From an uncultured Gammaproteobacteria bacterium (GTDB taxonomy: Bacteria > Pseudomonadota > Gammaproteobacteria > Magnimaribacterales > TMED112), in NCBI GenBank assembly GCA_913020145.1, contig CAJWAI010000003.1:1243-65242 (forward strand): a stretch of DNA of 64,000 nt, in the 5' to 3' direction. Numbering within the stretch: the stretch's first letter is position 1; every line of letters begins with the position of its first letter. A model generated the notes under the pieces. That model saw nothing but the letters and a program-made list of their open reading frames with translations. It searched no databases and had not been told where the DNA came from. The translations under genes and the position numbers were made by a program. Positions 15,740 through 62,754 of the stretch are shown in pieces.

Positions 15740-15820
15740 CTTTAAATGAGAACCATTCTCAATAAATTAGAGAAAAAAAGTTGTATTAATTGAACATTTG
15801 TACCAAAATCTACAACTCGC

Positions 15821-15898: not shown

Positions 15899-15909
15899 AC
15901 TTTGGAAAG

Positions 15910-16338: not shown

Positions 16339-17868
16339 ATGACAGGATTATTTAGAAACATTGTTTTACTAGCTCTATTTGTCTGCTTTGTTCCAATCCT
16401 GTTTCTAGGCATCTTTGATTTAGATGAAGGAGCATTTGCTGCTACATCTCTACAAATGCTAATCGATGAACAATATTTTATTCCTACCATAGGAGATGAC
16501 TTGAGGCTTGAAAAGCCAATTTTGACTTACTGGATTCAGACAATATCTATAAGCATCTTTGGATCGAATGAATTTGCTCTGCGACTTCCATCTTTAATTG
16601 CAGCATTGATATGGGCTATCAGTATTGCAGCTTTCATAAAGGAAGAAGATAGAACAATAAAAGGCACTAATATATTTTTAATCTTTTTTACTCTTCCAGG
16701 CATATTTTTAATAAGCTTTGCTGCGACCGCAGACGCTTTTTTAAACACCTTAATCTCTTTAACTTTTATCTCTCTTTACAAATACAGCAAAAATGAAAAA
16801 GCTTCTCATCTTAATAATGCAGCAATCTTTATTGGCATAGGTTTTCTAGTGAAAGGCTTAACAATTGTTTTTCTAGCTGGAGCAATCTTTTTTCTTTATT
16901 TGCTATTTATTGGCCAAATAAAAATATTTTTCAAAGCAATTATGAGCTATAAGCCATGGGCCATTTTCTTTTTAATAATAATCCCTTGGACAGCAGTAAT
17001 ATTTTTAAGACTTGATTTCGATGCTTTTTCTTACTTATTTTTAGGTCAATCTTTTGGAAGGTTTTCAAATACATTTGAAAGTCATACAGGCCCAGTATAT
17101 TACTACTTAATAATGCTGCCATTTTTAATTCTGCCTTTCTTTACCGATTTTTTAAAAGGGCTTTTCAGTTCAAAATTTAAATCTAATAGATTGGATATGT
17201 TTTTTGGAATCTGGTTTTTATTTGTTCTAATATTTTTTTCCTTCTCAAGCACCAAATTGCCGCACTACTTAATTTATGGTTTAACGCCAGCTGTATATTT
17301 TATTGAGAGGCAGCATTTAAAAACAGCAGGAAAATCTTTATCTATTTTTGCTTTTATCTTTCAAATTCTAATTTGGTCCATGCTTCTAGCATTGCCATTC
17401 TATCTTTCATATTTAATTGAGGTAATGCAAACCTATGAAGCTTCATTAAACGCAATTAATACCTTTGCTAAAGATCTTATCTATCAGGTGCTAATAGGCA
17501 TTATCTTATTAACCATTACCATTTGTTTTTTTCTTAAGTACGACAATGTCAAAGTCAAAAAATTATCTGCTTTAGCCTTTACTATCATATTGTCATTTAA
17601 AATAGCGCCATTTTTGCATTCAGTAACTCAGGGAGACATCAAAGAGTTAGGCCTTTATGCTCGTGATGGTGATAAAGAGGTCTCCATGTATAAGGTTAAT
17701 AAACCAAGCTATGCTTTCTATGCACAAAAAAAATCATTTAGAGGTTTAAGATCTAATTCATTAATTCTTACCAGAAAGGATAAATTAGATTTAGTTGATA
17801 AATCTTTTGAAGTGGTTAAAGAAAGTGAGAATTATTTAATTATTGAAATAAAATCCGATGAAAATTAA
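16339..17868 (+). CDS. ArnT-like GT-C glycosyltransferase (family 39/83, PMT_2-type)
   Basis: 509 aa, polytopic. N-terminal DLDEGAFAATSLQMLIDEQYFIPTIGDDLRLEKPILTYWIQTISISIFGSNEFALRLPS matches the ArnT/PMT signature loop (acidic DE motif, KPPL-YW, NEFA-RLPS). Confidence 0.8.
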   Translation: MTGLFRNIVLLALFVCFVPILFLGIFDLDEGAFAATSLQMLIDEQYFIPTIGDDLRLEKPILTYWIQTISISIFGSNEFALRLPSLIAALIWAISIAAFIKEEDRTIKGTNIFLIFFTLPGIFLISFAATADAFLNTLISLTFISLYKYSKNEKASHLNNAAIFIGIGFLVKGLTIVFLAGAIFFLYLLFIGQIKIFFKAIMSYKPWAIFFLIIIPWTAVIFLRLDFDAFSYLFLGQSFGRFSNTFESHTGPVYYYLIMLPFLILPFFTDFLKGLFSSKFKSNRLDMFFGIWFLFVLIFFSFSSTKLPHYLIYGLTPAVYFIERQHLKTAGKSLSIFAFIFQILIWSMLLALPFYLSYLIEVMQTYEASLNAINTFAKDLIYQVLIGIILLTITICFFLKYDNVKVKKLSALAFTIILSFKIAPFLHSVTQGDIKELGLYARDGDKEVSMYKVNKPSYAFYAQKKSFRGLRSNSLILTRKDKLDLVDKSFEVVKESENYLIIEIKSDEN

Positions 17869-18565
17869 TAGTGATCTTATTTTAGGACTAATATTTTTTG
17901 GTCTTGCATTTAGTTTGAAATTTCTACCAAGCTTTGACATTGCGACACTTAAATTTTTTAACAGTTTTTTATTTAATAGCACTTTTTTCACCTATTTTAC
18001 AGAATTTGGTAATGGCTGGTTCGTCGTTGCCTTAGTTATTCCAGTGCTCTCATTCATATCTTATAAATCTACAACTATGTTGTATGTACCAATACAAGCT
18101 TTAATACTCTCTGGGATATATATAGGTCTAATAATTCAGCTATTGAAAGAAGAAATTTTTCCTTTTACTAGACCAGCTTTAGAAGCAATTGAAGGAATAA
18201 ATTATGTTGAGCCAATATTTCGATACGCTACTTTTCCTAGTGGCCATGCTGCAACAATTTTTGGTGTAATTCTAATTTGGTTGCAGTTAGCTTCACAGGA
18301 AAAACAAAAAATTAGTCGACTAATAACTTTTTCAGCTTTAGGTTTTGCAAGTTTTGTTGCTTTATCAAGAGTAATAATAGCGGCCCATTGGTTTACAGAT
18401 ATTTTGGCTAGTCTTGGATTGGTTTTAATATTGAGATCGACGTTATCATTGGATAAAGTTAAAGCTCATCTTATGGAAGGTAACATAGCTAAATATTTTT
18501 CTTACTTTTTAGTTTTTATAGCTTGGGTAGGCATTATTTTCTTTGATATAACTGAGTATTTTTAA
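17858..18565 (+). CDS. PAP2-family lipid phosphatase (LpxE/LpxF/PgpB-like)
   Basis: Three PAP2 motifs: K-x7-RP (KEEIFPFTRP), PSGH (FPSGHAA) and SR-x5-H-x3-D (SRVIIAAHWFTD). About 6 TM. Confidence 0.8.
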   Translation: MKINSDLILGLIFFGLAFSLKFLPSFDIATLKFFNSFLFNSTFFTYFTEFGNGWFVVALVIPVLSFISYKSTTMLYVPIQALILSGIYIGLIIQLLKEEIFPFTRPALEAIEGINYVEPIFRYATFPSGHAATIFGVILIWLQLASQEKQKISRLITFSALGFASFVALSRVIIAAHWFTDILASLGLVLILRSTLSLDKVKAHLMEGNIAKYFSYFLVFIAWVGIIFFDITEYF

Positions 18566-19092
18566 TGAGTCTAGATATAGAGTTCTCAATTTGGCTTGCT
18601 CAGTTTCAATATTTAGATGGTTTTTTTAGCTTTATTTCTACAAGGTGGTTTGCATTTATTCTTGTACTTCTTGCAGGGATTTACTTCTACTACTTAAAAA
18701 AATTCAAAATCTTTATTTTTATATGTTTGGCAACATCATTTGGAGATTTCACTGGAAATATACTAAAAGAGCTTCTTTCAGATACTCGTCCTTGTTTTGG
18801 ATATAGTGAAATCTTTATCCAAGCGGGTTTAATTGAGCATGAATGCGGTTCTCAGTCTACTGGAATGCCATCAAACCATTCCATTAATTTCTTTCTTTTT
18901 ACTACCTTGTTGTGCCTAACAATAAAAAATAAATTTATATCTTCAATTTTTATAATTTCTTCAGTGTTCGTCGCATTATCTAGAGTTTTTTTAATTAAAC
19001 ATTTACTAAGCCAAGTTATAATAGGAGCATTCATAGGAATTTTCTTAGGGATACTTTTTTATAATTTATTTTACAAATGGATCAAAACGTAG
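18565..19092 (+). CDS. Second PAP2-family lipid phosphatase (variant third motif)
   Basis: K-x6-RP (KELLSDTRP), PSNH (MPSNHS) and SR-x5-H-x3-Q (SRVFLIKHLLSQ), where the final Asp is replaced by Gln. Confidence 0.75.
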   Translation: MSLDIEFSIWLAQFQYLDGFFSFISTRWFAFILVLLAGIYFYYLKKFKIFIFICLATSFGDFTGNILKELLSDTRPCFGYSEIFIQAGLIEHECGSQSTGMPSNHSINFFLFTTLLCLTIKNKFISSIFIISSVFVALSRVFLIKHLLSQVIIGAFIGIFLGILFYNLFYKWIKT

Positions 19093-20045
19093 AAGTTTCA
19101 ATTATCTCACCAGTTTTTAATGAATCTGAAAACATCGAGACCTTTGTTACTCGTGTATTTCAAACTATGCAAGAGAGTGGGCTTAGCTGGGAATTAATCA
19201 TCGTTGATGATGGTAGTACCGATGGATCTAGTGATGCTCTCAAAAGACTATCTCAAGAAAAGTCTGAGCTTAGAGTACTAGTATTATCCAAAAATTTTGG
19301 GCAAACACCTGCAATACAAGCAGGGTTCGATATAGCTAGAGGTAAATACTATGTAACTTTAGATAGCGATCTCCAGAATGATCCAAAAGACATACCAAAA
19401 GTTCTCAATAAGCTTATTGATGAAAAATTAGATCTTGTGGTTGGCTGGAGAAAGAATAGGAAGGACAATTTTTTCTTAAGAAACTTTCCTTCAATGATCG
19501 CCAACAATCTGATAGGAAAAATTACAGGGGTAAAGCTCAACGATTATGGTTGCAGTTTAAAAGCTTACAACGCAGCTATTCTAAAAGAAGTTCGACTTTA
19601 CGGTGAAATGCATAGATTTATTCCAGCATGGATGGCTACAAAAATTTCTCCAGATAAAATTAAACAAATAGAAGTTGATCATCATCCAAGATTGGCTGGC
19701 GTTTCTAAATACGGAATTTTTAGAACTTTCAGAGTTTTTATTGACCTAATATCTGTCTATTTCTTTATGAGATTTTTTAGCAGGCCTGGACATTTTTTTG
19801 GCTTAATAGGATTGATATTAGGTTTTGTCGGCGCAGCAATTCTTATATATTTAGTCTCTATTAAATTGTTCTATGGAATTGATATAGGCGATAGACCCTT
19901 ACTCTTAGCTGGCACTTTACTTGTAGTGGTAGGCGTTCAGTTCATAAGCTTGGGCGTTATTGGGGAAATATTAAGTAGAACTTATTATGCTTCAAGCAAA
20001 GAGAAATCTTACTTAGTGAGATGGGATTCTCATGATGAGCAGTGA
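19077..20045 (+). CDS. GT2 polyprenyl-phosphate glycosyltransferase (ArnC/GtrB/DPM1-like)
   Basis: VSIISPVFNESENI, LIIVDDGSTDGS, TLDSDLQNDP (DXD-type), two C-terminal TM helices as in ArnC/GtrB. Confidence 0.85.
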   Translation: MDQNVEVSIISPVFNESENIETFVTRVFQTMQESGLSWELIIVDDGSTDGSSDALKRLSQEKSELRVLVLSKNFGQTPAIQAGFDIARGKYYVTLDSDLQNDPKDIPKVLNKLIDEKLDLVVGWRKNRKDNFFLRNFPSMIANNLIGKITGVKLNDYGCSLKAYNAAILKEVRLYGEMHRFIPAWMATKISPDKIKQIEVDHHPRLAGVSKYGIFRTFRVFIDLISVYFFMRFFSRPGHFFGLIGLILGFVGAAILIYLVSIKLFYGIDIGDRPLLLAGTLLVVVGVQFISLGVIGEILSRTYYASSKEKSYLVRWDSHDEQ

Positions 20046-21396
20046 AATAAAAAATCTTTTTTTCATTATTTTTTCAGCATTAATTCTAAGAATATTATTT
20101 GATGTTATTAATAGCATGGGTATCCATTATGAAGAGGCTCAATATTGGGTTTGGTCACAGAATCCCTCGTTAAGTTATTTAACAAAAGGACCTTTTATTG
20201 CTAATGCAATAGCAATCTCGGAATGGATTTTTGGCTATGGTTATTTAGGGTTGAAGTTTCTTTCTTTCGATGCTTATGCAGGGACTGCATTAATTATTGG
20301 ATTCTGCGCCTATTTAATTTCAGAAGAAAAAACAGCATTTTATTTAGGGGTTATTTTTACTCTTTTTTCACCTGCAATTTTTGCTCTTGGTGGAGTTGCC
20401 ACAACCGATATATTTCTATTTTTCTTTTGGTCATTATGTTTATTAGGCTATGTAAAATTTTTAAAGACAAAAGATAAAAGATGGTTTTATTTGATAGCTA
20501 TTGGTATTGGTTTTGGCGTGCTAACTAAGCTTTCAATAATATTATTTCCTCTATCTGTTCTGCTTTATTTTGCAATATCAGAATATAGAACATATTTACG
20601 TTCAGTAACTTTATACAAAGCCATGCTAGTTGCTTTAACTTTAGGGTTGCCAATATTAATTTGGAATTATCAAAATGACTGGGCTTCTATTCAGCATGAA
20701 TTTGGACACTTAGTTTCAGATAACCCAACAACAAATCCTGAGGTATTGTTTTTTACTTTACTGATCACCATTCCTTCAATTTTATTTGTGTTGAATAAGA
20801 AGTTTTATCAGTTTGCTCAAAGCAAATTGGTTCAACCAATATTGATTCCAACCTTCTTCGTATTGCTATTCTTTCTCTTTAAAAGCATTGCTGGAAAGAT
20901 TCAATTAAACTGGGCCATACCATTATTTATTAGTTTGATTCCTGTAGTTTCAGCTTTTTTATCTAAATTGCGATTTAAATATCTTGTTTTGAATTTCGCT
21001 GGAATAATTCTTTTATTTGTTTTCTCTAATATTAATTTCACTAAAAACTTTACTCCAAACGACCCAATGCATGCATTAAGAGGTTGGGAATCAGAGGTAC
21101 TTGAATTATTTGGAGATTCACCCTATGACATTATTGTCTCAAATGATTATAAGTTACTATCTCTATCCGCATATTACTTAAATGATAGCCAAAATTTATT
21201 CTTAGATAGCCCGAAGAACTCAAGACTTACTTATTATGATCTTTGGGATAAAGCTATAGAGAAGAATGATGCAATTTTATATGTTTCTTATTCAAATAAA
21301 TCTGTTTTAGATAAGTCTTTAGATTGCTCTTATTTGAATAATGTAAATAATCATTCGAGAAAGCAATTAACTCTGTATACTTGTAAAAAGTTATGA
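20032..21396 (+). CDS. Second ArnT-like GT-C glycosyltransferase (family 39/83)
   Basis: 454 aa, polytopic. YEEAQYWVWSQNPSLSYLTKGPF is the typical DEA-YW-WS loop of PMT_2 proteins. Confidence 0.75.
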   Translation: MMSSEIKNLFFIIFSALILRILFDVINSMGIHYEEAQYWVWSQNPSLSYLTKGPFIANAIAISEWIFGYGYLGLKFLSFDAYAGTALIIGFCAYLISEEKTAFYLGVIFTLFSPAIFALGGVATTDIFLFFFWSLCLLGYVKFLKTKDKRWFYLIAIGIGFGVLTKLSIILFPLSVLLYFAISEYRTYLRSVTLYKAMLVALTLGLPILIWNYQNDWASIQHEFGHLVSDNPTTNPEVLFFTLLITIPSILFVLNKKFYQFAQSKLVQPILIPTFFVLLFFLFKSIAGKIQLNWAIPLFISLIPVVSAFLSKLRFKYLVLNFAGIILLFVFSNINFTKNFTPNDPMHALRGWESEVLELFGDSPYDIIVSNDYKLLSLSAYYLNDSQNLFLDSPKNSRLTYYDLWDKAIEKNDAILYVSYSNKSVLDKSLDCSYLNNVNNHSRKQLTLYTCKKL

Positions 21397-22391
21397 GAAT
21401 AGGGATAGTAGGCGCTGGTAAGTTCGGCTTAGCCTTAGCAAAGATAGCGGCAGAAAAAGAAAATCAAGTATTGCTATATTCTAGAAGAATACACGAAGTA
21501 AATTCTATTAATAATGATGGTAAAAGCCTGTCTGGAGTAGTCTTTCCATCAAATGAAAAAACATCAGCCACAGCAACCACTAAAGATTTAGATAATTGTG
21601 ATGTGCTTTTAATAACTGTCCCAAGCAAAGACTTTAGATCAACAATAGAATCTTTAAATATAGATATACAAACAACCAAGATTGTAAGTTGTGTTAAAGG
21701 TTTTGAAGAGAAAACAGGAAAACTAATGTCAGAGATATTGAAGGATGATTTTGGTATGCCAGAAAATAATATTTTTATTCTTAGTGGACCTAATTTATCG
21801 AAAGAAATATCTGATAAAGAATTAACAGGCACAGTCATAGCTGGCTCAGATAAAGATTTTATAAATCAGTTAAGTAAATCAATAAGCAATAATTACTTTA
21901 TACCTTTTTCAAGCTCAGATAGGTATGGAGTTGAGATGGGTGGCGCCATGAAAAATATCTATGCAATTATTTCAGGTTATTTCCATGAAAAAGGAGTAGG
22001 GGAGAATACAATTGGATTGCTTTTAACTAAAAGCTTAGAAGAGATAAGTCTTTATAGTCATGCTCGTGGTGCAAATGCATCAACATTTCTTGGCCTCTCC
22101 GGAGTGGGAGATTTCTTTTCAACAGCACTATCCCAACATTCAAGAAATTATCAATTTGGAAAATTTTTGGCTATGAATAAAGGATCTGCTGAAGCCTTAG
22201 AAATGGTGAATGATACAGTTGAAGGGTTTTTAACCTCGAAGATTGTTCATTCTGATGCAAAGAAAAGAGGTTTAGACTTAAAAATATTGAATTTTTTAAT
22301 CGAACTATATGAAAATCCTAAATCTTTAGATGAAGCAAAAGAAATTTTTCAAACTGATTCTATAGAAGAAGATAGTAAATTTAATTTTTAA
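21393..22391 (+). CDS. gpsA: NAD(P)H-dependent glycerol-3-phosphate dehydrogenase
   Basis: MRIGIVGAGKFGLALA Rossmann fold, GPNLSKEI, GGAMKNIYAI, NTIGLLLTKSLEE. Confidence 0.9.
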   Translation: MRIGIVGAGKFGLALAKIAAEKENQVLLYSRRIHEVNSINNDGKSLSGVVFPSNEKTSATATTKDLDNCDVLLITVPSKDFRSTIESLNIDIQTTKIVSCVKGFEEKTGKLMSEILKDDFGMPENNIFILSGPNLSKEISDKELTGTVIAGSDKDFINQLSKSISNNYFIPFSSSDRYGVEMGGAMKNIYAIISGYFHEKGVGENTIGLLLTKSLEEISLYSHARGANASTFLGLSGVGDFFSTALSQHSRNYQFGKFLAMNKGSAEALEMVNDTVEGFLTSKIVHSDAKKRGLDLKILNFLIELYENPKSLDEAKEIFQTDSIEEDSKFNF

Positions 22392-53738: not shown

Positions 53739-53980
53739 AAACCTTTCTTGAACAGAATCTATTAAATCTAGATCTTCATGGCGTAAGACATCATGAAGTA
53801 AAAGTTATGGTTGAAGATTTCATACTAAATAATCAAGAACAATTACCCTTAATAATAATTTGTGGTAATTCATCAAAGATGATTGAACTAGTAAGTCAAG
53901 CTTTAAAAGATATCAGTGTAAATTTTGAAGAAACAAGATACGGTAGAATAAGAGTGAATTCATTAGATGCGCAAACTTAA
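53735..53980 (+). CDS. Small Smr-domain-like protein
   Basis: 81 aa. LDLHGVRHHEVKVMVEDFI ... LIIICGNS resembles the Smr LDLHG / IIHGKG pattern. TTG start overlapping the iaaA stop. Confidence 0.45.
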   Translation: MKTFLEQNLLNLDLHGVRHHEVKVMVEDFILNNQEQLPLIIICGNSSKMIELVSQALKDISVNFEETRYGRIRVNSLDAQT

Positions 53981-55070
53981 AATAATTCAGATTCTCCCAA
54001 CATTGAATACAGGCGGTGTTGAAAGAGGGGTCTTAGATTTCAATAAATATTTAATAGGAAAAGGCCATGAATCATACGTAATATCTAACGGCGGCAGACA
54101 GGTAAAAAATTTAATTGATGATGGGGGTAAGCATATACATTTGCAGATAGCAGAGAAAAGTTTATTTACTCTTTTTCAGGCAAAAAAACTTGCTGATGTA
54201 ATTAATGAAATATCTCCAGATGTAATACATATCAGATCAAGAATCCCAGCCTGGGTTTTACAGCTTTCCAAATTATTTATCAAGAACCCAAGACCTTTAA
54301 TATTTTCGACTTTTCACGGACTATATAGCACACCCTTTTATAGCAGAATAATGGCTAGTTTCGATAGGGTAATTGCTATATCCAAAACAGTTGAAACATA
54401 CATTTATGAAAACTATGAGAGACATTTAAAAAAGCCACCAATGCTTATTTATAGGGGGTCAGACGAATCTTATTTTTCACCTAATTTTGAACCAAAACCT
54501 GGGTATATTGATAATTTCTATAGAAAATTGCCTAATTTATTAAATAAAAAAATTGTTGCTTTTCCAGGAAGACTTTCATCGTGGAAAGGACAAGAATCTT
54601 TTATTAAATTAATCTCTGAATTGCCTGATGATTTTTCTGGACTAATTGTTGGGCCTTATAATAATGCTAAGAAAAAATATTTTAAGCGCTTAAATAAACT
54701 TATCGAGAATTACAACACCAAAAGTAGAGTTTTTTTCTATGACGCAAAGGATGACATTAGAGAAATTTATTACCTGTCTGATCTAGTGATGAATCTTTCT
54801 ACTACACCTGAACCATTTGGACGCACTATTCTTGAAGCAGCAATGATGAACAAAAAAATCATTGGCTGGGATCGAGGTGGTGTTGGCGAAGTTTTAGATA
54901 TGTTCTATCCACAAGGAAAAGTTGAATTTGGTAATTTCAAATCTTTGGCAGAAACTGTGGAGAATCTATCTATTTCAGGAGAAAGACCATCAAATGTATT
55001 CCTTACCTCAGAGCTTATGCATTCTAAAACTGTTTCGTTTTATCTCGACACTCTAGAAAATAAATCTTGA
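53967..55070 (+). CDS. GT4 (group 1) glycosyltransferase
   Basis: KIIQILPTLNTGGVERGV N-terminus. C-terminal EPFGRTILEAAMMNKKIIGWDRGG (E-x7-E region). Confidence 0.8.
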   Translation: MRKLKIIQILPTLNTGGVERGVLDFNKYLIGKGHESYVISNGGRQVKNLIDDGGKHIHLQIAEKSLFTLFQAKKLADVINEISPDVIHIRSRIPAWVLQLSKLFIKNPRPLIFSTFHGLYSTPFYSRIMASFDRVIAISKTVETYIYENYERHLKKPPMLIYRGSDESYFSPNFEPKPGYIDNFYRKLPNLLNKKIVAFPGRLSSWKGQESFIKLISELPDDFSGLIVGPYNNAKKKYFKRLNKLIENYNTKSRVFFYDAKDDIREIYYLSDLVMNLSTTPEPFGRTILEAAMMNKKIIGWDRGGVGEVLDMFYPQGKVEFGNFKSLAETVENLSISGERPSNVFLTSELMHSKTVSFYLDTLENKS

Positions 55071-56020
55071 TAAATTCTAATAACTTTTTTAGTTTGAACT
55101 GAAAGTAGATTTTCTTCTTTAACCTTCTTAAAGCACTCTTCTTGTAGCATCTCTAATTCATGAACATTATCGACCCATTGATAAAGTAAATCTTTAAAAC
55201 TCTCATCATTAATTTCAGCAAGAGATGAGGTAGGAAGAAAGTTACTCATAATGCCACATTTAGTTGAAAGTACTGGGACATTACAGAAAAGAGATTCAAA
55301 TAAAACTTTTGGCGAACCTTCTCTATCAGAAGGTATTACTAATGCTTTCGCTTTTGAGAACAGCGCAGCAACATCATTTGTTTCAGGCTCTAATGATATT
55401 TGATCAGACAAATTCAGATCTTCAATTAAATTTTGCATTTCACTCTTTGACGCACCTTCGCCAACCATAATTAATTTTTGATCTATGCCTTTCCAAGCAT
55501 TAATTAGTCTTTTAGGATTCTTGACGGGCTCAAACCTACCCAAATAAAGAAAATATTCGCCTTCAGATCTTGAATAATTATTAAATCTGCTTTCATCGAC
55601 CCAATTTTCTAAAACCATGGAATTTGATGAAGATATTTTTTCTAGTGACTTTTGGCTAGCTCCAAATATAAAGTCTGTTTTTTCAAAAGGAGAAATGTTC
55701 TTCTTAGTCCCATGAATAGTAGAAACATGAAGATCTAGATGATTAAATTTGTTAACAATATTAGTCATCTTGCTTGCATGAGTATGCAATATATCAGGAG
55801 CTATGGAATTAATTATTTTTTTAGTCTGATTCAGCAGAATGGGCGAATGTCTCCATTGATTGGTATCTAAAACTCTATACTCACAACGAAAATTTTCTTT
55901 CAAGCTTTCAGGGCCTACAACAATGACTTCATGGCTTTGTGATTGTTCATAGGAAAGCTCTTCTAAGTGTCTTTCTAACCCAGCAAATACTTTGCTCGAA
56001 AATAGGTGCAAGATTTTCAT
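55040..56020 (-). CDS. GT4 (group 1) glycosyltransferase
   Basis: MKILHLFSSKVFAGLERH, YLGRFEPVKN, PSDREGSPKVLFESLFCNVPVL. Confidence 0.8.
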   Translation of the reverse strand: MKILHLFSSKVFAGLERHLEELSYEQSQSHEVIVVGPESLKENFRCEYRVLDTNQWRHSPILLNQTKKIINSIAPDILHTHASKMTNIVNKFNHLDLHVSTIHGTKKNISPFEKTDFIFGASQKSLEKISSSNSMVLENWVDESRFNNYSRSEGEYFLYLGRFEPVKNPKRLINAWKGIDQKLIMVGEGASKSEMQNLIEDLNLSDQISLEPETNDVAALFSKAKALVIPSDREGSPKVLFESLFCNVPVLSTKCGIMSNFLPTSSLAEINDESFKDLLYQWVDNVHELEMLQEECFKKVKEENLLSVQTKKVIRIYQDLFSRVSR

Positions 56021-56931
56021 AGCCTTTCTAATAATTCTTCAACTACTCTTTTTACTTCTTTAAGGTGTATATTTTTTTGAGGATGAATCAAATCTATATC
56101 TTTAACTGATCGCGACAACAGAAACCGTTTTGTATTTATATAGCCCAAAGAGCCATCACTTTTTAATCTATCAATGTTTTTGCTAACCTTCGTAGAACTT
56201 TCACCATGTTCACTAGCATGTTTTTCATGATGAAAGACATAAACTTTTGTTTTTGTTGAAAGCGCTTCATAAAGCACTGAGACACTTTCAGGAGTAATAA
56301 ATGTTATTTCATTTGTTTGCATTTCTTTCGATAGCCAATCTGAAGAAGTTTCCTTCCAGTTAAAGAATTTTGCATTACCCTTATGTTTTGGAGTAGGCAT
56401 ATTTGGAGATCTAGGCGAAGTGGTTATTGTCCATTGGTAATCATCAAACTTTTCATTTAGCAACCATTCTATCTGTTGGTGGACAACTTTTTTTCGAAAA
56501 TGAAAATGTCTACTTTTCCCACCTATCACCATTAGGCCTTTCTTTTTGTTTGTTTCTTGATCTGAATATCTTGATAATACGCCTTTAGTCGTTATGACAT
56601 TTTTAGGTTTTCCTAAGTGATACTTGTCCATATCTGGCACTATTGCTATATCGAACCATTGCGTAGGCCTTAAAGAAGGTTTCATCAGTACAATGGTTTT
56701 TGCACCTTGACGATTTTTTTTAGCTTTTAACATATGTTTATGTGAGCTATTACCAGCTCCTAAGATAATATCGGGCATTGAATCGTGACCTTGATAATCA
56801 GTGAAATTATGTAATTTGATTCTTTTATGCTTCTCAAATTCAGAAATAAGGGCTTCTATTTGCTTTTCATGGCCTTTTTTTCCATCTTTAAAGGCCCAAA
56901 TGGTAATTTCTTCTTTCTGTTTAAGGGACAT
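56017..56931 (-). CDS. ELM1/GtrOC1-family putative glycosyltransferase (Mito_fiss_Elm1 domain)
   Basis: IWAFKDGKKGHEKQIEAL, PDIILGAGNSSH, VLMKPSLRPTQWFDIAIVPDMD. This pattern matches my recollection of the ELM1-like family found in LOS outer-core loci. Confidence 0.6.
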   Translation of the reverse strand: MSLKQKEEITIWAFKDGKKGHEKQIEALISEFEKHKRIKLHNFTDYQGHDSMPDIILGAGNSSHKHMLKAKKNRQGAKTIVLMKPSLRPTQWFDIAIVPDMDKYHLGKPKNVITTKGVLSRYSDQETNKKKGLMVIGGKSRHFHFRKKVVHQQIEWLLNEKFDDYQWTITTSPRSPNMPTPKHKGNAKFFNWKETSSDWLSKEMQTNEITFITPESVSVLYEALSTKTKVYVFHHEKHASEHGESSTKVSKNIDRLKSDGSLGYINTKRFLLSRSVKDIDLIHPQKNIHLKEVKRVVEELLERL

Positions 56932-56949
56932 AGATTAAAATAATGATAC

Positions 56950-57723
56950 ATGGATCAGAATAATCAATACAAATCTGTTTTTTTATCAGATATACATTTA
57001 GGTTTTGGTGGCTGCCAAAGCGATAAGCTTGACCTTTTCCTTAGCAATCTAAAATGCGAAGAGCTATATCTTGTAGGGGATATTATTGATTTTTGGGCAA
57101 TGGAAGATAATTTCTATTGGCCAGATCTACATACTAAGATAATAGACAGGTTTATTGATCTTAAAGAACAAGGTGTAGATGTAAAATATATTTCTGGCAA
57201 TCACGATGACCCATTAAGAGAAGATAGGATTTTGGAGGATCTTTATAATAGGGGTGAGCCTTATCACACAATAATTAATCAATTAGATAGATTAGATCAT
57301 TCTGAGCAATACGACTTTATGTCAAAAAAGCATGGAAAAATTTTGCTGATTCACGGAGATCAATATGACTCCGTAACTTCTAATGCAAAATGGGTGTCTA
57401 AGCTTGGGGGTTTAATTTACGACGGACTCATACATATAAACCGCCCACTTTCAAAACGCTTAAAAGCTTTAACAAAAAGACTTGTAGATGGAGCTAGTGG
57501 ATTTCATAGAAAAGTAAAAAATGAATGTCATAAAGGCGGATATGCTGGTTTAATGTGTGGACATAATCACAGGCCTGAAATTAAAAAATTCGAAAACCAT
57601 TTTTATCTAAATACTGGCGATTGGGTAGAATCTTGTTCTGCTATAGTTGAGCTAACAGATGGTTCTATTCAGCTAATAAAAATGGATAATGACAATAATA
57701 TTATTAAAGTCGCAGAGTTATGA
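56950..57723 (+). CDS. plcP: PlcP-like metallophosphoesterase (LpxH-related; phospholipase C of the lipid-renovation pathway)
   Basis: VFLSDIHLGFGGCQSDKLDLFLSNLKCEELYLVGDIIDFWAM, SGNHDD, IHGDQYD, GHNHRP. The GC(Q) insertion after DxHLG and GDIID-W are typical of PlcP-type rather than LpxH-type enzymes as I recall them. A GT4 gene follows with a 4-nt overlap. Confidence 0.65.
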   Translation: MDQNNQYKSVFLSDIHLGFGGCQSDKLDLFLSNLKCEELYLVGDIIDFWAMEDNFYWPDLHTKIIDRFIDLKEQGVDVKYISGNHDDPLREDRILEDLYNRGEPYHTIINQLDRLDHSEQYDFMSKKHGKILLIHGDQYDSVTSNAKWVSKLGGLIYDGLIHINRPLSKRLKALTKRLVDGASGFHRKVKNECHKGGYAGLMCGHNHRPEIKKFENHFYLNTGDWVESCSAIVELTDGSIQLIKMDNDNNIIKVAEL

Positions 57724-58712
57724 AGAAAATTTTAATAATTACTGATGCATGGAAGCCCCAAGTTAACGGAGTAGTAACAACTATGACTACTGTAGTAGAA
57801 AGGTTAGAGAAAAAAGGTTTTCATGTAGATGTAATTCATCCTGGCTTGTTTCATACATTTCCACTTCCAAATTATCCGGAGATATCTGTAGCGTGGAATT
57901 TTTGGGATCTTAAAAAGAAAATAAAAAAACTTGAACCAGACTTTTTTCATATCTCTGTTGAAGGACCGCTAGGGCTTACAGCTAGACATTATTGTTTAGA
58001 ACATAAAATACCTTATACATCATGCATCCATACTAAATTTCCTGAGTATGTATACGAGAGATTTGGTATTGGTCTTGATGCCACTAAAGGACTGTTAAAA
58101 TGGTTCCATAATTCTGCTGCTAAAACACTTGTTAACACTAAAAGCCACATGGAGGACCTAACGTCTGATGGTTTCACTGACCTTTTTTTATGGTCAAGAG
58201 GATTTGATGAAAAAATCTTTTACCCAGCTAAGGAAGGAAGCAAAAAAAAATATTTGCTTTATGTTGGCAGAGTTGCAGTTGAAAAAAATATAGAAGAGTT
58301 TTTAAAAATGGAATCTAATTTACCTAAAGTGGTAGTCGGTGGTGGACCTAGCCTTAAGTCATACCAAAAAAAATACCCAGATGTTGAATTTGTTGGATTC
58401 AAGGTAGGTAATGAGTTAGCGGATTTTTATAGAGATGCTGCATGCTTTGTATTCCCATCTAAAACAGATACATTTGGTATTGTTCTAATTGAAGCTCTTG
58501 CATGTGGAACGCCAATAGCTGGCTTTAATGTCACTGGTCCTAAAGATATTGTAATAGAGGGTGTAAATGGATCTCTTGATGAAGAAAATCTTAGTTTAGC
58601 TGTACAAAGAGCACTTGAAGTTACAAGAGAATCAACATTTGAATCCTCAAAAACTTATACTTGGGATAGAGTTGCAGACCAATTTATAGATTCACTAATA
58701 CCAATTAAATAA
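57720..58712 (+). CDS. agt: GT4 glycosyltransferase, Agt-like (diacylglycerol glycosyl/glucuronosyl transferase candidate)
   Basis: MKKILIITDAWKPQVNGVVTTM, FPLPNYPEI, YVGRVAVEKN, PSKTDTFGIVLIEALACGTPIAG. Translationally coupled to plcP. Confidence 0.6.
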   Translation: MKKILIITDAWKPQVNGVVTTMTTVVERLEKKGFHVDVIHPGLFHTFPLPNYPEISVAWNFWDLKKKIKKLEPDFFHISVEGPLGLTARHYCLEHKIPYTSCIHTKFPEYVYERFGIGLDATKGLLKWFHNSAAKTLVNTKSHMEDLTSDGFTDLFLWSRGFDEKIFYPAKEGSKKKYLLYVGRVAVEKNIEEFLKMESNLPKVVVGGGPSLKSYQKKYPDVEFVGFKVGNELADFYRDAACFVFPSKTDTFGIVLIEALACGTPIAGFNVTGPKDIVIEGVNGSLDEENLSLAVQRALEVTRESTFESSKTYTWDRVADQFIDSLIPIK

Positions 58713-58713
58713 G

Positions 58714-59433
58714 ATGTTTGTTTTTTATCCACTTTCAGACGATAACCCAACAACAAGAACACCAATTCTGACTTGGGCATTAATTGGGATTAATGTTCTT
58801 ATTTTTCTTTATCAGCTTTCTATTGGCGATGCATCTAATAATAGACTTATAAGCGACTATGGTGTTAGGCCAAGTGTGTTCACAGATTTTAGTGATCTTC
58901 ATACAATTATCACTTCTGCATTTTTACATGCAGATATCTGGCATTTATTTTTTAATATGTTGTTTCTATATATTTATGGAGACAACATTGAAGCTTATTT
59001 AGGCCGAGTTAATTTTATGATCTTCTATGCTCTTGGAGGTCTTTCTGCAGCATTATTACAATCTATGTTTTCGGGAGGCATGGATGTCCCGATGATAGGT
59101 GCAAGCGGCTGCATATCTGCAATCATGGGAGCCTATTGGGTTCTTTACCCCAAAGCTAAAATTAATGTTTTTCTTTGGATATTTATTTTTATTCAATTTA
59201 TAAAAGTTCCTGCCAGCATAGTAATTGGATTCTGGATACTTGAGCAATTGATTTCTGCAGGTAATGGCTCATACGATGGCGTAGCATATTTTGCTCATAT
59301 AGGAGGGTTCATATTTGGATATGTTGGAATAAAATTCTTTTTTAAGGAATACGTTCAATACGAGGAAATTAGCGAAGGTGACTTGCCAATATCCAGAAAA
59401 AATAAATCTCAAGGACTAACAAAAGATGATTGA
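58714..59433 (+). CDS. Rhomboid-family intramembrane serine protease
   Basis: HADIWHLFFNMLFL, catalytic Ser in GASGCISAIMGAY, catalytic His in FAHIGGFIFG. Confidence 0.88.
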   Translation: MFVFYPLSDDNPTTRTPILTWALIGINVLIFLYQLSIGDASNNRLISDYGVRPSVFTDFSDLHTIITSAFLHADIWHLFFNMLFLYIYGDNIEAYLGRVNFMIFYALGGLSAALLQSMFSGGMDVPMIGASGCISAIMGAYWVLYPKAKINVFLWIFIFIQFIKVPASIVIGFWILEQLISAGNGSYDGVAYFAHIGGFIFGYVGIKFFFKEYVQYEEISEGDLPISRKNKSQGLTKDD

Positions 59434-59716
59434 TAAAATAGAGGAAAGACTATTAAAAAATATTCAATGCATTCATCTTGAGGTTATAGATGAAAGTCCA
59501 AATCATGGCGGGTATGATGGCTCAGTTTCTCATGTAAAAATAATTATTGTTTCCGATGAGTTTAGTGATCAATCTCTAATTAATAGACATAAGTTGGTTT
59601 ATAAAGCTATGGAAGACTTTGTAGGGCAAATACACGCAATATCCATAGTTTCAAAAACTAGCAATCAATGGGAAGAATCTAATGAATATCTTAGTTCTCC
59701 CGAGTGTGCTAAATAA
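59426..59716 (+). CDS. BolA-family protein
   Basis: 96 aa. LEVIDESPNHGG...SHVKIIIVSDEF...INRHKLVYKAM...IHAISI. Confidence 0.8.
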   Translation: MIDKIEERLLKNIQCIHLEVIDESPNHGGYDGSVSHVKIIIVSDEFSDQSLINRHKLVYKAMEDFVGQIHAISIVSKTSNQWEESNEYLSSPECAK

Positions 59717-61983
59717 TGATTCGAGACTTCTTTCAAAAAATAATTAGTCACAAATATTTATTTTTATTTGGATTATTTCTACTCTTAGGCACTTCTTTAC
59801 TTGGGTTAAATAATTTTAGATTTGATGCTTCGTCTGAGACTTTAGTTCTTGATAGTGACGCTGATTATCAAATCTATAATCAAATAAACGATGAATTCGG
59901 CACTTCAGAATACGTAATCTTAGCAATTAAAAATGACCAGATGTTTTCTCAAGAAACATTAATTCAACTAAAAGCTATACAAGATAAACTCCTTGCTTTA
60001 GAAGTCGTAAGTGATGTTGTGTCAATCTTAGATGCACCTATATTTGAACAACCAAAGGTATCTTTAATTAAATCAGCCGATAACGATAAGTATTTGTTAA
60101 TCGATAAACTTGATTTAGATAAAGCAAAACATGAATTGAGCACAAGCCCAATTTTTAATGAGTTAGTAATTAGCAAAAATGGTGAAGTTACAGCTATGCA
60201 GATCAACTTATATGATAGAGATGATTATTCACAAGCTGTAGCTGAAATAAGAGCTATTATTAATAGCAATCAGACATTTGAAATGCATCTAGCTGGCCCA
60301 GCAATGATAGTGGTCGATACAATAGATTTTATTAAAGCTGATGTGAACACATTCGGCACTCTAACTGTAATTATATTTTTCATATTGCTTACTTTATTTT
60401 TTAGAGACCTTTGGTCAGTATCAGTAGTTATATTAAATGCCGGCTTAGTTATGCTTTTTACGATGGGCATTTTAGGCTTGTTCGATTGGCCAATAAGCAT
60501 AGTCTCTTCAAATTTTCTTGCTCTTTTGTTGATTGCATCAATTGCGATATCAATTCACATTCTTGTTAAAGTTCAAGATGGTATTGAAGAGGGCATTACC
60601 AACGCTGAATCATTTTCAAAAATTATTACACCATGTTTCTATGCAGCTTTGACAACAGCTGTAGGATTTTTATCTCTAATTTTAAGTGACATTAAGCCTG
60701 TAATTGATTTCGGAAAAATGATGGCTGTTGGAGTTTGCTTAAATTTCTTCGTATCATTTATTTTTATTCCCTGCACTCTAGCCATTAGAAATATAACAGC
60801 GAATAAAAATAAGAGTCTAGTGCCTTTTTTCTATAACAATATTTATTTAACAGGTAGAAGCTTGATTAGAAAATTTTATCTTCCAATTCTTTTAATTAGT
60901 TTTCCTTTATTCTTTTATTTCAGCTCGAATCTAAAAGTTGAGAATAAATTTATTGATTACTTCAATGAAAATACTGAGATCTATCAGGGTATGTCTTTGA
61001 TAGATGATAAATTGGGAGGCACAACTCCAATAGAAGTAATTTTAGAGTTACCCGAAGAAGAATTTTACATCGATGAAGATGATCTTTTTTTTAGTGAAGG
61101 TTCAGAAACAGTCACTTATTGGTGGCGTGAAAAGAACATGGATATTTTAGAAGAAATTCAAGAAGGTTTAACTGAATTTGATGCTTTAGGGAAAGCTTTA
61201 AGTCTAGTAAATGGAGTCCAACTAGCTGAAAGATTAAATGATGGCAATGAAATTGGCGATTTAGAGCTGGCATTTGTAAAAAATTCTTTGATTGAAAGCG
61301 AGAAAGCTAAAGATCTATTAAATGAATTCATCTCAGAAGATGAGAGAAGTGCAAGAATAACAATCAGAACGATTGATTCATTTGACGGCATAAATCGAAA
61401 TCAACTTCTATTAGATGTAGATAATTTTCTTTCTGAAACATTATCTGATACTGACGTCAGTTATACCGTAAGTGGTCTAGGAGTTTTATATAACAACTTG
61501 TTGCAGAGCTTATTCAGCTCACAAATAAAAACTATATCTTTGGTTTTCGCAGCAATTTTTTTAATGCTATTGGTCTTATTTAGATCATTTTTAAATGCAT
61601 TATTTATTATTGTTGTACCAGCATTTTCTGTTGGCGTTGTTCTTTCTTTAATGAGCATATTCAATATTCCGTTAGATATCATGACTATTACAATTGCATC
61701 TATATCAGTTGGAATGTCTGTCGATTATTCGATACATTTTGCTTGGAGATATCTACAAGAGAGAAAAAAATCACAAGAAAATAGTGAAAAAGAAACAATC
61801 TATTCTACTGGTAGAGCTATATTGATTACAGGACTAACAATTATCGTAGGATTTTTAATCTTCATGTTCTCTAATTTTAATCCTACAGTTTTATTTGGTA
61901 TTTTTTCAGCGCTTGCAATTTATATAAGTATGGTGATGTCATTCCGTTTTTTACCTGCGCTTTTGGATTTAAATTTTAAATAA
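59716..61983 (+). CDS. MMPL/RND-superfamily transporter (HpnN/MmpL-like, sterol-sensing-domain type)
   Basis: 755 aa. Topology is 1 TM, large loop, 5 TM, repeated twice. The last TM bundle carries SVGMSVDYSIHFAWRY. Confidence 0.75.
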   Translation: MIRDFFQKIISHKYLFLFGLFLLLGTSLLGLNNFRFDASSETLVLDSDADYQIYNQINDEFGTSEYVILAIKNDQMFSQETLIQLKAIQDKLLALEVVSDVVSILDAPIFEQPKVSLIKSADNDKYLLIDKLDLDKAKHELSTSPIFNELVISKNGEVTAMQINLYDRDDYSQAVAEIRAIINSNQTFEMHLAGPAMIVVDTIDFIKADVNTFGTLTVIIFFILLTLFFRDLWSVSVVILNAGLVMLFTMGILGLFDWPISIVSSNFLALLLIASIAISIHILVKVQDGIEEGITNAESFSKIITPCFYAALTTAVGFLSLILSDIKPVIDFGKMMAVGVCLNFFVSFIFIPCTLAIRNITANKNKSLVPFFYNNIYLTGRSLIRKFYLPILLISFPLFFYFSSNLKVENKFIDYFNENTEIYQGMSLIDDKLGGTTPIEVILELPEEEFYIDEDDLFFSEGSETVTYWWREKNMDILEEIQEGLTEFDALGKALSLVNGVQLAERLNDGNEIGDLELAFVKNSLIESEKAKDLLNEFISEDERSARITIRTIDSFDGINRNQLLLDVDNFLSETLSDTDVSYTVSGLGVLYNNLLQSLFSSQIKTISLVFAAIFLMLLVLFRSFLNALFIIVVPAFSVGVVLSLMSIFNIPLDIMTITIASISVGMSVDYSIHFAWRYLQERKKSQENSEKETIYSTGRAILITGLTIIVGFLIFMFSNFNPTVLFGIFSALAIYISMVMSFRFLPALLDLNFK

Positions 61984-62754
61984 AACTTTAAAATTATTTG
62001 TAGTTAAATTTCCTAATTTGTCCTCTGAAATATCTAGCTCTTTAGCTATAACAGATAGAATATGATTAAGGTACTTCGGTTCGTTCCGATTATTTTTTAC
62101 TTTGGTCTTTAAATCTTTAGGTAATAAGTATGGAGCATCAGTTTCAATTAACATTCTATCTATAGGAATGTATTTCAATAAACTTTTAACTTCATTACCT
62201 CTCTTAGGGTCACAAATCCATCCAGTAATACCTATATAAAGACCTAAATCAAGAAAACTTTTTAATTCTTCTTTGGTGCCTGTAAAACAATGGACGATGC
62301 TTGGAGACAAGTGATCTATGGCATTGTTTAAAATTGGATAAAAGTCGGAAAAAGCATCTCTATGATGTAAAAAGGCTGGCAGTTTAGTTTCTACAGCAAG
62401 CTCTAGCAAAGCTTCAAAGCATTTCTTTTGTATATTATGACTTTGAAAGTTTCTAAAATAATCTAAACCTATTTCTCCGATTGCTTTTACAGAATTATGG
62501 CTAGCATACTGTTTTAAATTTTTATAGGTTCCAGGTTTTAGTTCAGAAGAGTAATGTGGATGTATTCCCACTCCAGCAAATATATTTTCTGGAAATTTTT
62601 CGCATGTTTTTAGTATATCCTCAATCTCTATTTCTCTTGATGCAGGACAAAAAAGATATTCAATATTAGAAGAGATTGAATCATCAATGACCAAATCTAA
62701 GTCATTTTTAAAACTATCATGTGTGAAATTGAAACAACTATCTGCTAATAACAT
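61969..62754 (-). CDS. TatD-family metal-dependent hydrolase/DNase
   Basis: GVGIHPH, AIGEIGLDY, FLHHRDA, VHCFTG, IETDAPYL. Confidence 0.88.
   Translation of the reverse strand: MLLADSCFNFTHDSFKNDLDLVIDDSISSNIEYLFCPASREIEIEDILKTCEKFPENIFAGVGIHPHYSSELKPGTYKNLKQYASHNSVKAIGEIGLDYFRNFQSHNIQKKCFEALLELAVETKLPAFLHHRDAFSDFYPILNNAIDHLSPSIVHCFTGTKEELKSFLDLGLYIGITGWICDPKRGNEVKSLLKYIPIDRMLIETDAPYLLPKDLKTKVKNNRNEPKYLNHILSVIAKELDISEDKLGNLTTNNFKVLFKI

What the first reader, a model, noticed from the sequence alone, without database searches (positions are those of the whole stretch)
56950..61983. plcP-agt phosphorus-sparing lipid-renovation pair fused into one operon with a rhomboid protease, BolA and an MMPL/RND transporter
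Seen: five plus-strand genes have junctions of -4, +1, -8 and -1 nt (57720/57723, 58712/58714, 59426/59433, 59716). The first is an LpxH-related metallophosphoesterase with the DIHLG-x-GGCQ and GDIIDFW pattern. The second is a 330-aa GT4 beginning KILIITDAWKPQVNGVV. Established: in Sinorhizobium, Agrobacterium, SAR11 and marine roseobacters the PlcP phospholipase C and the Agt glycosyltransferase together convert phospholipids into glucosyl and glucuronosyl diacylglycerols under phosphate starvation. MMPL/HpnN-type RND proteins move lipids (trehalose monomycolate, hopanoids) out of the inner membrane. Inference (the new part): the co-transcribed MMPL transporter may deliver the surrogate glycolipids to the outer membrane, with the rhomboid and BolA as envelope-remodelling accessories. 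That would extend the two-gene renovation module into a synthesis-plus-trafficking system. I found no Pho box in the 18-nt spacer or in the adjacent sequence.
Basis: partly seen in the sequence, partly recalled or inferred. Interest (0 to 1): 0.7.

Follow-up and report, generated by a model that had tools for sequence, protein, structure and literature searches.

The report
Known lipid-renovation pair, incidental downstream neighbours
The first two genes are a genuine copy of the known PlcP-Agt system that swaps phospholipids for sugar lipids when phosphorus is scarce, but the rhomboid, BolA and MmpL-type transporter genes packed behind them sit there through inherited gene order in a very compact genome, not as a demonstrable lipid-trafficking extension.

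Summary
The five plus-strand genes and their junctions (-4, +1, -8, -1 nt) are exactly as described. Gene 1 is a PlcP-type phospholipase C, not LpxH: it scores 227 bits against a PlcP profile, where H. influenzae LpxH scores 43, and it falls far below the curated LpxH cut-offs. Gene 2 is an Agt/GTcp-type diacylglycerol glycosyltransferase. It scores 427 bits against an Agt profile and keeps every mutagenesis-validated GTcp residue except Thr162, which is Ser. The plcP-agt pairing is already published, as is PlcP in SAR86. The proposed synthesis-plus-trafficking system is not supported. In 79 of 80 plcP loci from other lineages no rhomboid, BolA or MMPL homologue lies within 10 kb. In 33 deeper relatives the rhomboid...BolA...MMPL...TatD...AAA order persists with unrelated genes interspersed and no plcP or agt. 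One relative has plcP-bolA-MMPL without agt or rhomboid. Tight junctions are the norm in this genome: 25 of 35 same-strand pairs are 1 nt apart or less, and coding density is 94%. The transporter does have an MmpL-type fold, but its substrate is unknown. No canonical Pho box precedes plcP in this lineage. Verdict: a new, divergent member of a known system; low interest.

The parts
56950..57723 (+). plcP: PlcP-type metallophosphoesterase (phospholipase C releasing diacylglycerol). Belongs to a divergent subclade with lineage-specific indels in the lid region.
   Evidence: Pfam Metallophos. LpxH equivalog models score 36-41 bits against cut-offs of 134-190, N-terminus only. A PlcP profile scores it 226.6 bits against 43.1 for H. 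influenzae LpxH. The NJ tree places it in the PlcP family, far from LpxH. Metal-binding motifs DxH, GD, GNH, H and GHxH are invariant; indels are visible in alignment A1.
57720..58712 (+). agt: GT4 diacylglycerol glycosyltransferase of the Agt/GTcp group. Its start codon overlaps the plcP stop (ATGA).
   Evidence: GT4 domains. An Agt profile scores it 427 bits against 26 and 6 for the window's other GT4s. It is 40-42% identical to SAR11 Agt and 44-47% to other plcP-adjacent Agts. GRVAVEKN, FPSKTDTFG, the His-Asp dyad, Glu and Trp are conserved as in GTcp.
58714..59433 (+). Rhomboid-family intramembrane serine protease. Catalytic GxSG (Ser131) and His195 are present. Substrate unknown.
   Evidence: Pfam Rhomboid, 107 bits. 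Motifs checked. Sits about 5 kb from bolA in group B relatives and is absent from the locus in L008.
59426..59716 (+). bolA: BolA-proper type protein (not the IbaG/YrbA type).
   Evidence: Pfam BolA. E. coli BolA 2dhm E=1.9e-16 against YrbA 3.7e-4. Found upstream of the MMPL gene in every relative with enough sequence.
59716..61983 (+). MMPL/HAE3-like RND-superfamily transporter with 12 TM helices and two periplasmic domains. Substrate unknown.
   Evidence: Pfam MMPL, 151 bits; TIGR00921 197.9 bits, below its cut-off of 351.9. AF2 model pLDDT 75. Foldseek matches MmpL4/5/3 at TM 0.70-0.75 and HpnN at 0.65-0.68, with 12-15% identity.
56017..56931 (-). Divergent neighbour: ELM1-family (GT-B-like) gene. 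Its start lies 18 nt from the plcP start, so the plcP promoter must lie inside its coding sequence. It belongs to the conserved flank and is not claimed as part of the system.
   Evidence: Pfam Mito_fiss_Elm1, 131.8 bits. Spacer sequence. Syntenic in group A and L008.
61969..62754 (-). Convergent neighbour: TatD-family nuclease overlapping the MMPL 3' end by 15 nt. It marks the end of the co-directional run and belongs to the conserved flank.
   Evidence: Pfam TatD_DNase. Syntenic in groups A and B and in L008.

Best explanation
The locus has two layers. The first is a genuine, translationally coupled plcP-agt lipid-renovation pair. PlcP cleaves the phospho-headgroup from membrane phospholipids to give diacylglycerol, and Agt transfers glucose or glucuronate from a UDP-sugar onto that diacylglycerol, producing phosphorus-free glycolipids. 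The second layer is an older, lineage-specific gene order (rhomboid ... bolA ... MMPL ... tatD ... AAA-ATPase) that exists independently of plcP-agt. In this very compact marine gammaproteobacterial genome the intervening genes have been lost, so the backbone genes now abut plcP-agt with overlapping stop and start codons. The five genes are probably read from one transcript because there is no room for signals between them. That is a consequence of compaction, not evidence that the transporter, protease and BolA serve glycolipid trafficking. Shown: the family identities, the synteny patterns and the junction statistics. Inferred: the enzymatic activities (from orthology and conserved catalytic residues), co-transcription, and compaction as the cause of adjacency.
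For: PlcP identity. Agt identity and validated residues. plcP-agt adjacency recurs in 32-37 of 80 loci from SAR11, Burkholderia, Pseudomonas, Planctomycetes and others, mostly with junctions of 8 nt or less, and is published as the 'type 2' context. No rhomboid, BolA or MMPL similarity at E<=0.01 within +/-10 kb of plcP in 79 of 80 other-lineage loci. Group B relatives (33 loci, MMPL 37-39% identical, AAA about 75%): bolA is present upstream of the MMPL gene in 24 of 24 covered loci and the rhomboid in 12 of 12, with no PlcP or Agt hit in any of the 33. The interspersed genes are DUF3604, MFS, Ogt, TrhO and a CoA-transferase. L008 has GT-GT-Elm1-plcP-bolA-MMPL without agt or rhomboid. In group A the flanks (GT, GT, Elm1, TatD, AAA) are conserved as well as the five genes. 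Across the window, 25 of 35 same-strand pairs are 1 nt apart or less, 11 of 12 convergent pairs overlap and 93.6% is coding. Other tight runs join unrelated genes: recR-dcd, and an ArnT-like gene with gpsA. A subclade tolerates an amidohydrolase gene inserted between plcP and agt with overlapping junctions.
Against: Within the window's own lineage the five-gene arrangement is conserved over considerable divergence (PlcP down to 50%, MMPL down to 51% identity) in 37 of 38 informative loci. Selection for co-expression therefore cannot be excluded. The transporter does have the fold of lipid or lipophile exporters, and how surrogate glycolipids reach the outer membrane is not known. L008 again places plcP directly next to bolA-MMPL. 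No expression data were available.
Confidence: 0.8

Rival explanations
1. One reading: the five genes form a synthesis-plus-trafficking operon. The MmpL-type transporter extracts the newly made glycolipids from the inner membrane for delivery to the outer membrane, and the rhomboid and BolA act as envelope-remodelling accessories.
For: Contiguous, overlapping genes conserved across group A. MmpL-type fold shared with lipid and lipophile exporters. L008 also has plcP beside bolA-MMPL.
Against: No co-occurrence outside the lineage: 0 of 79 loci. The three genes keep their order without plcP-agt in 33 deeper relatives. Flanking genes are equally syntenic. Tight junctions are the genome norm. SAR11, Pseudomonas and Burkholderia carry plcP-agt with no such transporter within 10 kb of it. 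No paper in the library links PlcP with MMPL.
Confidence: 0.08
2. Regulatory rewiring without trafficking: in this lineage plcP-agt has lost PhoB control and is expressed constitutively, or under a general envelope or stress programme, as part of a housekeeping transcript. This would give a permanently phosphorus-sparing membrane.
For: A canonical Pho box with 3 mismatches or fewer lies upstream of plcP in 25 of 77 other-lineage loci, against 1 of 71 coding controls. Group A shows only background (2 of 37, wrong strand). The 18-nt divergent spacer leaves no intergenic promoter space. The locus sits in a housekeeping region.
Against: SAR11 loci also lack a consensus match, yet a SAR11 isolate changes its lipids on phosphate starvation. 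AT-rich streamlined genomes may use divergent PhoB sites. SAR86 transcribes phoBRU in the field. No expression data exist for this locus.
Confidence: 0.12
3. Gene 1 is the organism's LpxH (the lipid A pathway UDP-2,3-diacylglucosamine hydrolase), as several source databases label its relatives, and the GT4 is an LPS-related transferase.
For: JGI and NCBI automatic names for homologues. Weak LpxH HMM and PDB similarity. LPS-type GT genes lie upstream.
Against: LpxH equivalog scores of 36-41 bits against cut-offs of 134-190, N-terminus only. A 227-bit against 43-bit PlcP-profile discrimination. The tree places it within PlcP. Its partner is an Agt orthologue with DAG-binding residues. From established knowledge, Pseudomonas has both LpxH and PlcP, so the two are paralogous families.
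Confidence: 0.02

Closest known systems
PlcP-Agt lipid-renovation pair of 'Candidatus Pelagibacter' sp. HTCC7211 (PB7211_983 / PB7211_960 = GTcp) and of P. aeruginosa (PA3219-PA3218)
   Same: Same two families in the same order, typically with a tight junction. The window's Agt is 40-42% identical to Agt in SAR11 single-cell genomes, and its PlcP 36-38%. GTcp catalytic, UDP-sugar-binding and DAG-binding residues are conserved. This is the 'type 2' plcP context of Sebastian et al. 2016.
   Different: This PlcP belongs to a deep, divergent subclade (40% identity or less to all others sampled) with +15 and -15 aa indels in the lid-equivalent region. Thr162 of GTcp is Ser. There is no canonical Pho box, unlike Pseudomonas and Burkholderia. 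The pair is embedded in a co-directional run with rhomboid, bolA and MMPL genes.
LpxH (UDP-2,3-diacylglucosamine hydrolase; e.g. H. influenzae 5K8K)
   Same: Same calcineurin-like metallophosphoesterase superfamily, the same metal-binding motifs and a similar length.
   Different: Only E=2e-7 and 24% identity. Fails both curated LpxH models. Separated by a long branch in the tree.
Mycobacterial MmpL3/MmpL4/MmpL5 and Burkholderia HpnN (MMPL-type RND lipid/lipophile exporters)
   Same: Overall 12-TM, two-periplasmic-domain fold; TM-score 0.70-0.75 to MmpL4/5/3 and 0.65-0.68 to HpnN. Pfam MMPL.
   Different: 12-15% identity. Sequence similarity is confined to the C-terminal TM bundle. All curated subfamily cut-offs are missed. 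No MmpS-like, AcpM-like or hopanoid-synthesis partner genes lie nearby. Substrate unknown.
E. coli BolA and GlpG
   Same: The BolA is of the BolA-proper type (E=1.9e-16 to 2DHM). The rhomboid has the GxSG/His catalytic dyad.
   Different: Both score below the curated equivalog cut-offs. The rhomboid lacks GlpG's N-terminal cytoplasmic domain (239 aa; its match starts at model position 93). No known link of either to glycolipid synthesis.

Membership tests
PlcP (LpxH-like phospholipase C of lipid renovation) | Full-length similarity to PlcP proteins that is clearly stronger than similarity to LpxH | tested here: met
   A profile of 32 agt-adjacent PlcPs from other lineages scores the window protein 226.6 bits against 43.1 for H. 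influenzae LpxH. The NJ tree agrees.
PlcP (LpxH-like phospholipase C of lipid renovation) | Intact metallophosphoesterase metal-binding motifs | tested here: met
   D14, H16, D44, N84, H85, H135, H205 and H207 are invariant in alignment A1.
PlcP (LpxH-like phospholipase C of lipid renovation) | Genomic pairing with a non-phosphorus-lipid synthesis gene (agt, btaAB, etc.) | tested here: met
   An Agt orthologue follows with a 4-nt overlap. This is the context type defined in PMC4796936.
PlcP (LpxH-like phospholipase C of lipid renovation) | Phospholipase C activity on PE/PG/PC releasing diacylglycerol | not testable with these tools
   Needs an enzyme assay or complementation of a plcP mutant.
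PlcP (LpxH-like phospholipase C of lipid renovation) | Induction by phosphate limitation / Pho box upstream | tested here: not met
   No site with 3 mismatches or fewer on the correct strand in group A (2 of 37, background level), against 25 of 77 in other lineages. This is inconclusive for regulation itself, because SAR11 loci also lack the consensus.
Agt / GTcp group of GT4 (DAG glycosyltransferase) | GRVAXEKN and FPSXTDTFG UDP-sugar motifs and the His104-Asp256 dyad (Asp, not Glu) | tested here: met
   GRVAVEKN, FPSKTDTFG, and His in CIHTKF aligned with the SAR11 His.
Agt / GTcp group of GT4 (DAG glycosyltransferase) | DAG-binding residues Thr162, Arg163, Trp320 | tested here: met
   Ser-Arg (WSRG against WTRG) and Trp (YTWD) are aligned. 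There is one conservative change, Thr to Ser.
Agt / GTcp group of GT4 (DAG glycosyltransferase) | Synthesis of MGlc-DAG / MGlcA-DAG | not testable with these tools
   Needs heterologous expression and lipidomics.
LpxH | Score above the curated equivalog cut-offs (TIGR01854 190 bits; NF003743 134 bits) | tested here: not met
   36.3 and 41.1 bits, covering residues 8-86 only.
MmpL / HpnN-type lipid exporters | MMPL domain and a 12-TM RND fold with two periplasmic domains | tested here: met
   Pfam MMPL 151 bits. AF2 model plus Foldseek TM 0.65-0.75.
MmpL / HpnN-type lipid exporters | Membership of a characterised subfamily (HpnN, MmpL3, HAE3) by curated cut-off | tested here: not met
   HpnN 96.8 bits (cut-off 751.85) and 45 (1100); MmpL3 18.2 (1400); HAE3 197.9 (351.9).
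MmpL / HpnN-type lipid exporters | Genomic linkage to the biosynthesis genes of its cargo across lineages | tested here: not met
   Linked to plcP-agt only in its own lineage: 0 of 79 elsewhere, and 0 of 33 deeper relatives have plcP-agt at the locus.
BolA family | BolA domain, BolA-proper rather than IbaG type | tested here: met
   Pfam 71 bits. 2DHM E=1.9e-16 against 1NY8 3.7e-4.
Rhomboid proteases | Rhomboid domain with the catalytic Ser (GxSG) and His | tested here: met
   Pfam 107 bits. GASG at residue 129 and His195.

The most novel reading that the evidence does not exclude
In this streamlined, low-phosphorus-adapted gammaproteobacterial lineage, plcP-agt has been freed from canonical PhoB control and fixed into a single transcript with an MmpL-type transporter. 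That transporter has been co-opted to move the surrogate glycolipids out of the inner membrane, which would make it the first dedicated glycolipid export step of lipid renovation.
Probability: 0.07. Interest if true: 0.6.

Novelty: new member of a known kind. Interest (0 to 1): 0.2.

Why it matters
As it stands, this adds a divergent gammaproteobacterial (probably SAR86-like) branch to the known PlcP-Agt lipid-renovation system, which matters for reading phosphorus-stress genes in ocean metagenomes. It is also a cautionary example: in streamlined genomes, overlapping stop and start codons and conserved gene order do not by themselves indicate a functional module. If the transporter did move surrogate glycolipids, it would address an open question, namely how non-phosphorus lipids reach the outer membrane. 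Nothing found here favours that over inherited synteny.

Tried and rejected
It served for cross-lineage context, and close relatives came instead from an MMPL-anchored metagenome scan.
2. L120 looked like a group A genome lacking plcP-agt-rhomboid. It is 99.4% identical to L119 from a breakpoint inside the rhomboid 3' end, so it is a likely assembly chimera or rearrangement and was discarded as evidence.
3. The homologue search with the MMPL protein returned only close relatives in its top 120, so it said nothing about wider bolA-MMPL linkage.
4. The promoter and terminator scans gave counts at or below shuffle expectation and are uninformative.
5. Attempts to fix the taxon through cluster names gave only 'Gammaproteobacteria bacterium' and one evidently mislabelled TMED152 MAG. 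A SAR86 affiliation stays an inference.
6. No second LpxH-like gene and no pho/pst or lpx genes are in the window, so the 'other lpxH in the genome' criterion could not be tested.
7. No paper in the library links PlcP and MMPL.

Full report
**Observation.** The window carries five co-directional ATG-initiated ORFs at 56950-57723, 57720-58712, 58714-59433, 59426-59716 and 59716-61983. The junctions are as reported: an ATGA overlap, a 1-nt spacer, an 8-nt overlap and a TAATG overlap. The quoted peptide motifs are present. Pfam and NCBIfam assign the genes to Metallophos, GT4, Rhomboid, BolA and MMPL. The run is bounded upstream by a divergent ELM1-family gene whose start lies 18 nt away, and downstream by a convergent TatD gene that overlaps the MMPL gene by 15 nt. 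The same arrangement, with identical proteins, occurs on many Tara Oceans and JGI marine metagenome contigs. MAG labels say only 'Gammaproteobacteria bacterium'. A SAR86-like affiliation is my inference from the 33% GC, the compactness, the TonB-receptor content and the published presence of PlcP in SAR86.

**Gene 1 is PlcP, not LpxH.**
- The curated LpxH equivalog models score it 36-41 bits against cut-offs of 134-190, and only over residues 8-86.
- The best solved LpxH matches at E=2e-7.
- I built a profile from 32 PlcP proteins that sit directly upstream of an Agt gene in unrelated lineages. It scores the window protein 226.6 bits and H. influenzae LpxH 43.1 bits. The LpxH sequence was taken from the alignment printed, residues 4-236.
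- A neighbour-joining tree without bootstrap places the window's lineage as a monophyletic, deep branch with the PlcP proteins of SAR11, Pseudomonas and Burkholderia. A long branch separates all of them from LpxH.
- All metal-binding motifs are invariant.
- The lineage carries a +15 aa and a -15 aa indel in the central, lid-equivalent region and is at most 40% identical to any other PlcP sampled. It is therefore a divergent subclade.

**Gene 2 is an Agt/GTcp orthologue.**
- An Agt profile scores it 427 bits, against 26 and 6 bits for the two other GT4 genes in the window.
- It is 40-42% identical to the Agt of SAR11 single-cell genomes and 44-47% to others.
- The biochemical study of the SAR11 enzyme defines two motifs (GRVAXEKN and FPSXTDTFG), a His104-Asp256 dyad, Gly, Arg, Lys, Thr, Phe, Gly and Glu donor-site residues, and DAG-binding Thr162, Arg163 and Trp320 (PMC8231724).
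- The window protein has GRVAVEKN and FPSKTDTFG, the aligned His, Asp-Thr-Phe-Gly, Glu and Trp, and Ser-Arg in place of Thr-Arg.

**The plcP-agt pair is general and already described.**
- In the 80 plcP loci recovered from species-representative genomes, an Agt orthologue follows plcP directly in about 32-37. The junction is 8 nt or less in 24 of 33 measured cases.
- This is the 'type 2' context of Sebastian et al. 2016, who also reported PlcP in SAR86 (PMC4796936).
- The P. aeruginosa PA3219-PA3218 pair is a characterised example (PMC8528852).

**The downstream trio is not linked to plcP-agt outside this lineage.**
- Even at E<=0.01 with no coverage filter, 79 of the 80 loci show no rhomboid, BolA or MMPL similarity within +/-10 kb of plcP.
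- The one exception, L008 (a Gammaproteobacteria MAG), shares the whole region: GT, GT, Elm1, plcP, bolA, MMPL, a CoA-transferase, TatD, a thioesterase and AAA. It has neither agt nor the rhomboid.

**The MMPL-anchored metagenome scan gave 80 loci in two groups.**
- *Group A* (47 loci, MMPL 51-95% identical): 37 of 38 loci with enough upstream sequence carry plcP, agt, rhomboid and bolA in order. The thirty-eighth, L099, fits a subclade variant with a 531-aa amidohydrolase gene inserted between plcP and agt. The flanks (GT, GT, Elm1 upstream; TatD, AAA downstream) are conserved as well as the five genes.
- *Group B* (33 loci, MMPL 37-39%, AAA about 75% identical): no locus has any PlcP or Agt hit. 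bolA lies upstream of the MMPL gene in 24 of 24 covered loci, and the rhomboid about 5 kb further upstream in 12 of 12. The interspersed genes are unrelated: DUF3604, an MFS transporter, Ogt, a TrhO-type rhodanese and a CoA-transferase.
- The order rhomboid...bolA...MMPL...tatD...AAA therefore predates, and is independent of, plcP-agt. Adjacency in the window's lineage is best explained by loss of the interspersed genes.

**Tight junctions are the rule in this genome.**
- A simple gene call gives 61 genes and 93.6% coding.
- 25 of 35 same-strand neighbour pairs are 1 nt apart or less (median -1), and 11 of 12 convergent pairs overlap. These figures use maximal ORFs, which slightly favours overlaps.
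- Other tight runs join unrelated functions, for example dnaX-recR-dcd, and an ArnT-like gene with gpsA.
- The amidohydrolase insertion sits between plcP and agt with overlapping junctions too.
- The rest of the window is housekeeping: purMN, sppA, xseA, folD, gdhA, lon, ppiD, fabI, gltX, TonB-dependent receptors.

**The three downstream proteins.**
- The transporter matches solved RND proteins by sequence only in its C-terminal TM bundle: MmpL4 3e-10, Dispatched 1e-9, HpnN 7e-6, MmpL3 1e-5. It misses every curated subfamily cut-off.
- An AlphaFold model (pLDDT 75, pTM 0.71) superposes on MmpL4/5/3 at TM 0.70-0.75 and on HpnN at 0.65-0.68, with 12-15% identity.
- It therefore plausibly works like a lipid or lipophile exporter, but its cargo is unknown and nothing ties it to glycolipids.
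- BolA is of the E. coli BolA type.
- The rhomboid has its catalytic Ser and His.

**Regulation.**
- The consensus CTGTCATNNNNCTGTCAT, the one used in the Pseudomonas work, gives 5 matches in the window against 5.8 expected, none near plcP.
- As a positive control, 25 of 77 other-lineage loci have a site with 3 mismatches or fewer within 300 nt upstream of plcP, all on the coding strand, against 1 of 71 coding controls.
- Group A shows only background: 2 of 37, on the wrong strand.
- SAR11 loci also show none, although a SAR11 isolate changes its lipids when phosphate-starved. SAR86 transcribes phoBRU in the field. Absence of the consensus does not establish constitutive expression.
- Promoter and terminator scans were uninformative.

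**Verdict.**
- The identification of plcP-agt is correct but already known.
Inherited synteny plus genome compaction explains the arrangement better.
- What is modestly new: a divergent PlcP subclade with lid indels, the apparent lack of a canonical Pho box, and a lineage-specific five-gene run.
- I rate it a new member of a known kind, with low interest, and give about 7% to the reading that the transporter has been co-opted for glycolipid export.

Noticed in passing
window 15790-22391 (+): A tight seven-gene run holds two ArnT-like PMT_2 glycosyltransferases, two PAP2 phosphatases, a GT2 (ArnC-like) and gpsA. It looks like a lipid A or undecaprenyl-phosphate-sugar modification cluster. Lipid A dephosphorylation would be a second phosphorus-sparing envelope trait in the same organism.
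   Followed up: no
L129:6398-7993 (also L097, L103, L107, L127; L099 compatible): A subclade of the window's lineage carries a 531-aa Amidohydro_3 gene inserted between plcP and agt with overlapping junctions (-4, -8). It is either unrelated cargo or an unrecognised third component of the module.
   Followed up: partly
window 56950-57723, residues ~92-106 and ~165: The PlcP of this lineage has a 15-aa insertion and a 15-aa deletion relative to canonical PlcP, in the region equivalent to the LpxH lid. All catalytic motifs are kept. A changed membrane or substrate interface is possible.
   Followed up: partly
window 56650-56950, and upstream of plcP in L085-L139: No canonical Pho box precedes plcP in this lineage (2 of 37, wrong strand), against 25 of 77 other-lineage loci and 1 of 71 coding controls. 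SAR11 loci also lack it. The 18-nt divergent spacer forces both promoters into coding sequence.
   Followed up: yes
L147:3757-12481; L008:9992-13805: bolA lies upstream of the MmpL-type transporter gene in every relative examined, down to 37% transporter identity. A TrhO/UPF0176 gene sits between them in group B, and the two genes overlap directly in L008. This is a deep, unexplained bolA-MMPL linkage independent of plcP-agt.
   Followed up: partly
L120:1898-2428: This contig is 99.4% identical to L119 from nt 2307 onward, but is joined upstream to lepA and oxidoreductase genes through a breakpoint inside the rhomboid 3' end, creating a 176-aa fusion ORF. It is probably an assembly chimera, or possibly a real rearrangement.
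   Followed up: yes
window 53967-56931: Two GT4 genes and an ELM1-family (GT-B-like) gene lie directly upstream of plcP and stay syntenic with it even in the distant L008, which lacks agt. They are presumably LPS/LOS core genes, but their persistent adjacency to plcP was not explained.
   Followed up: no
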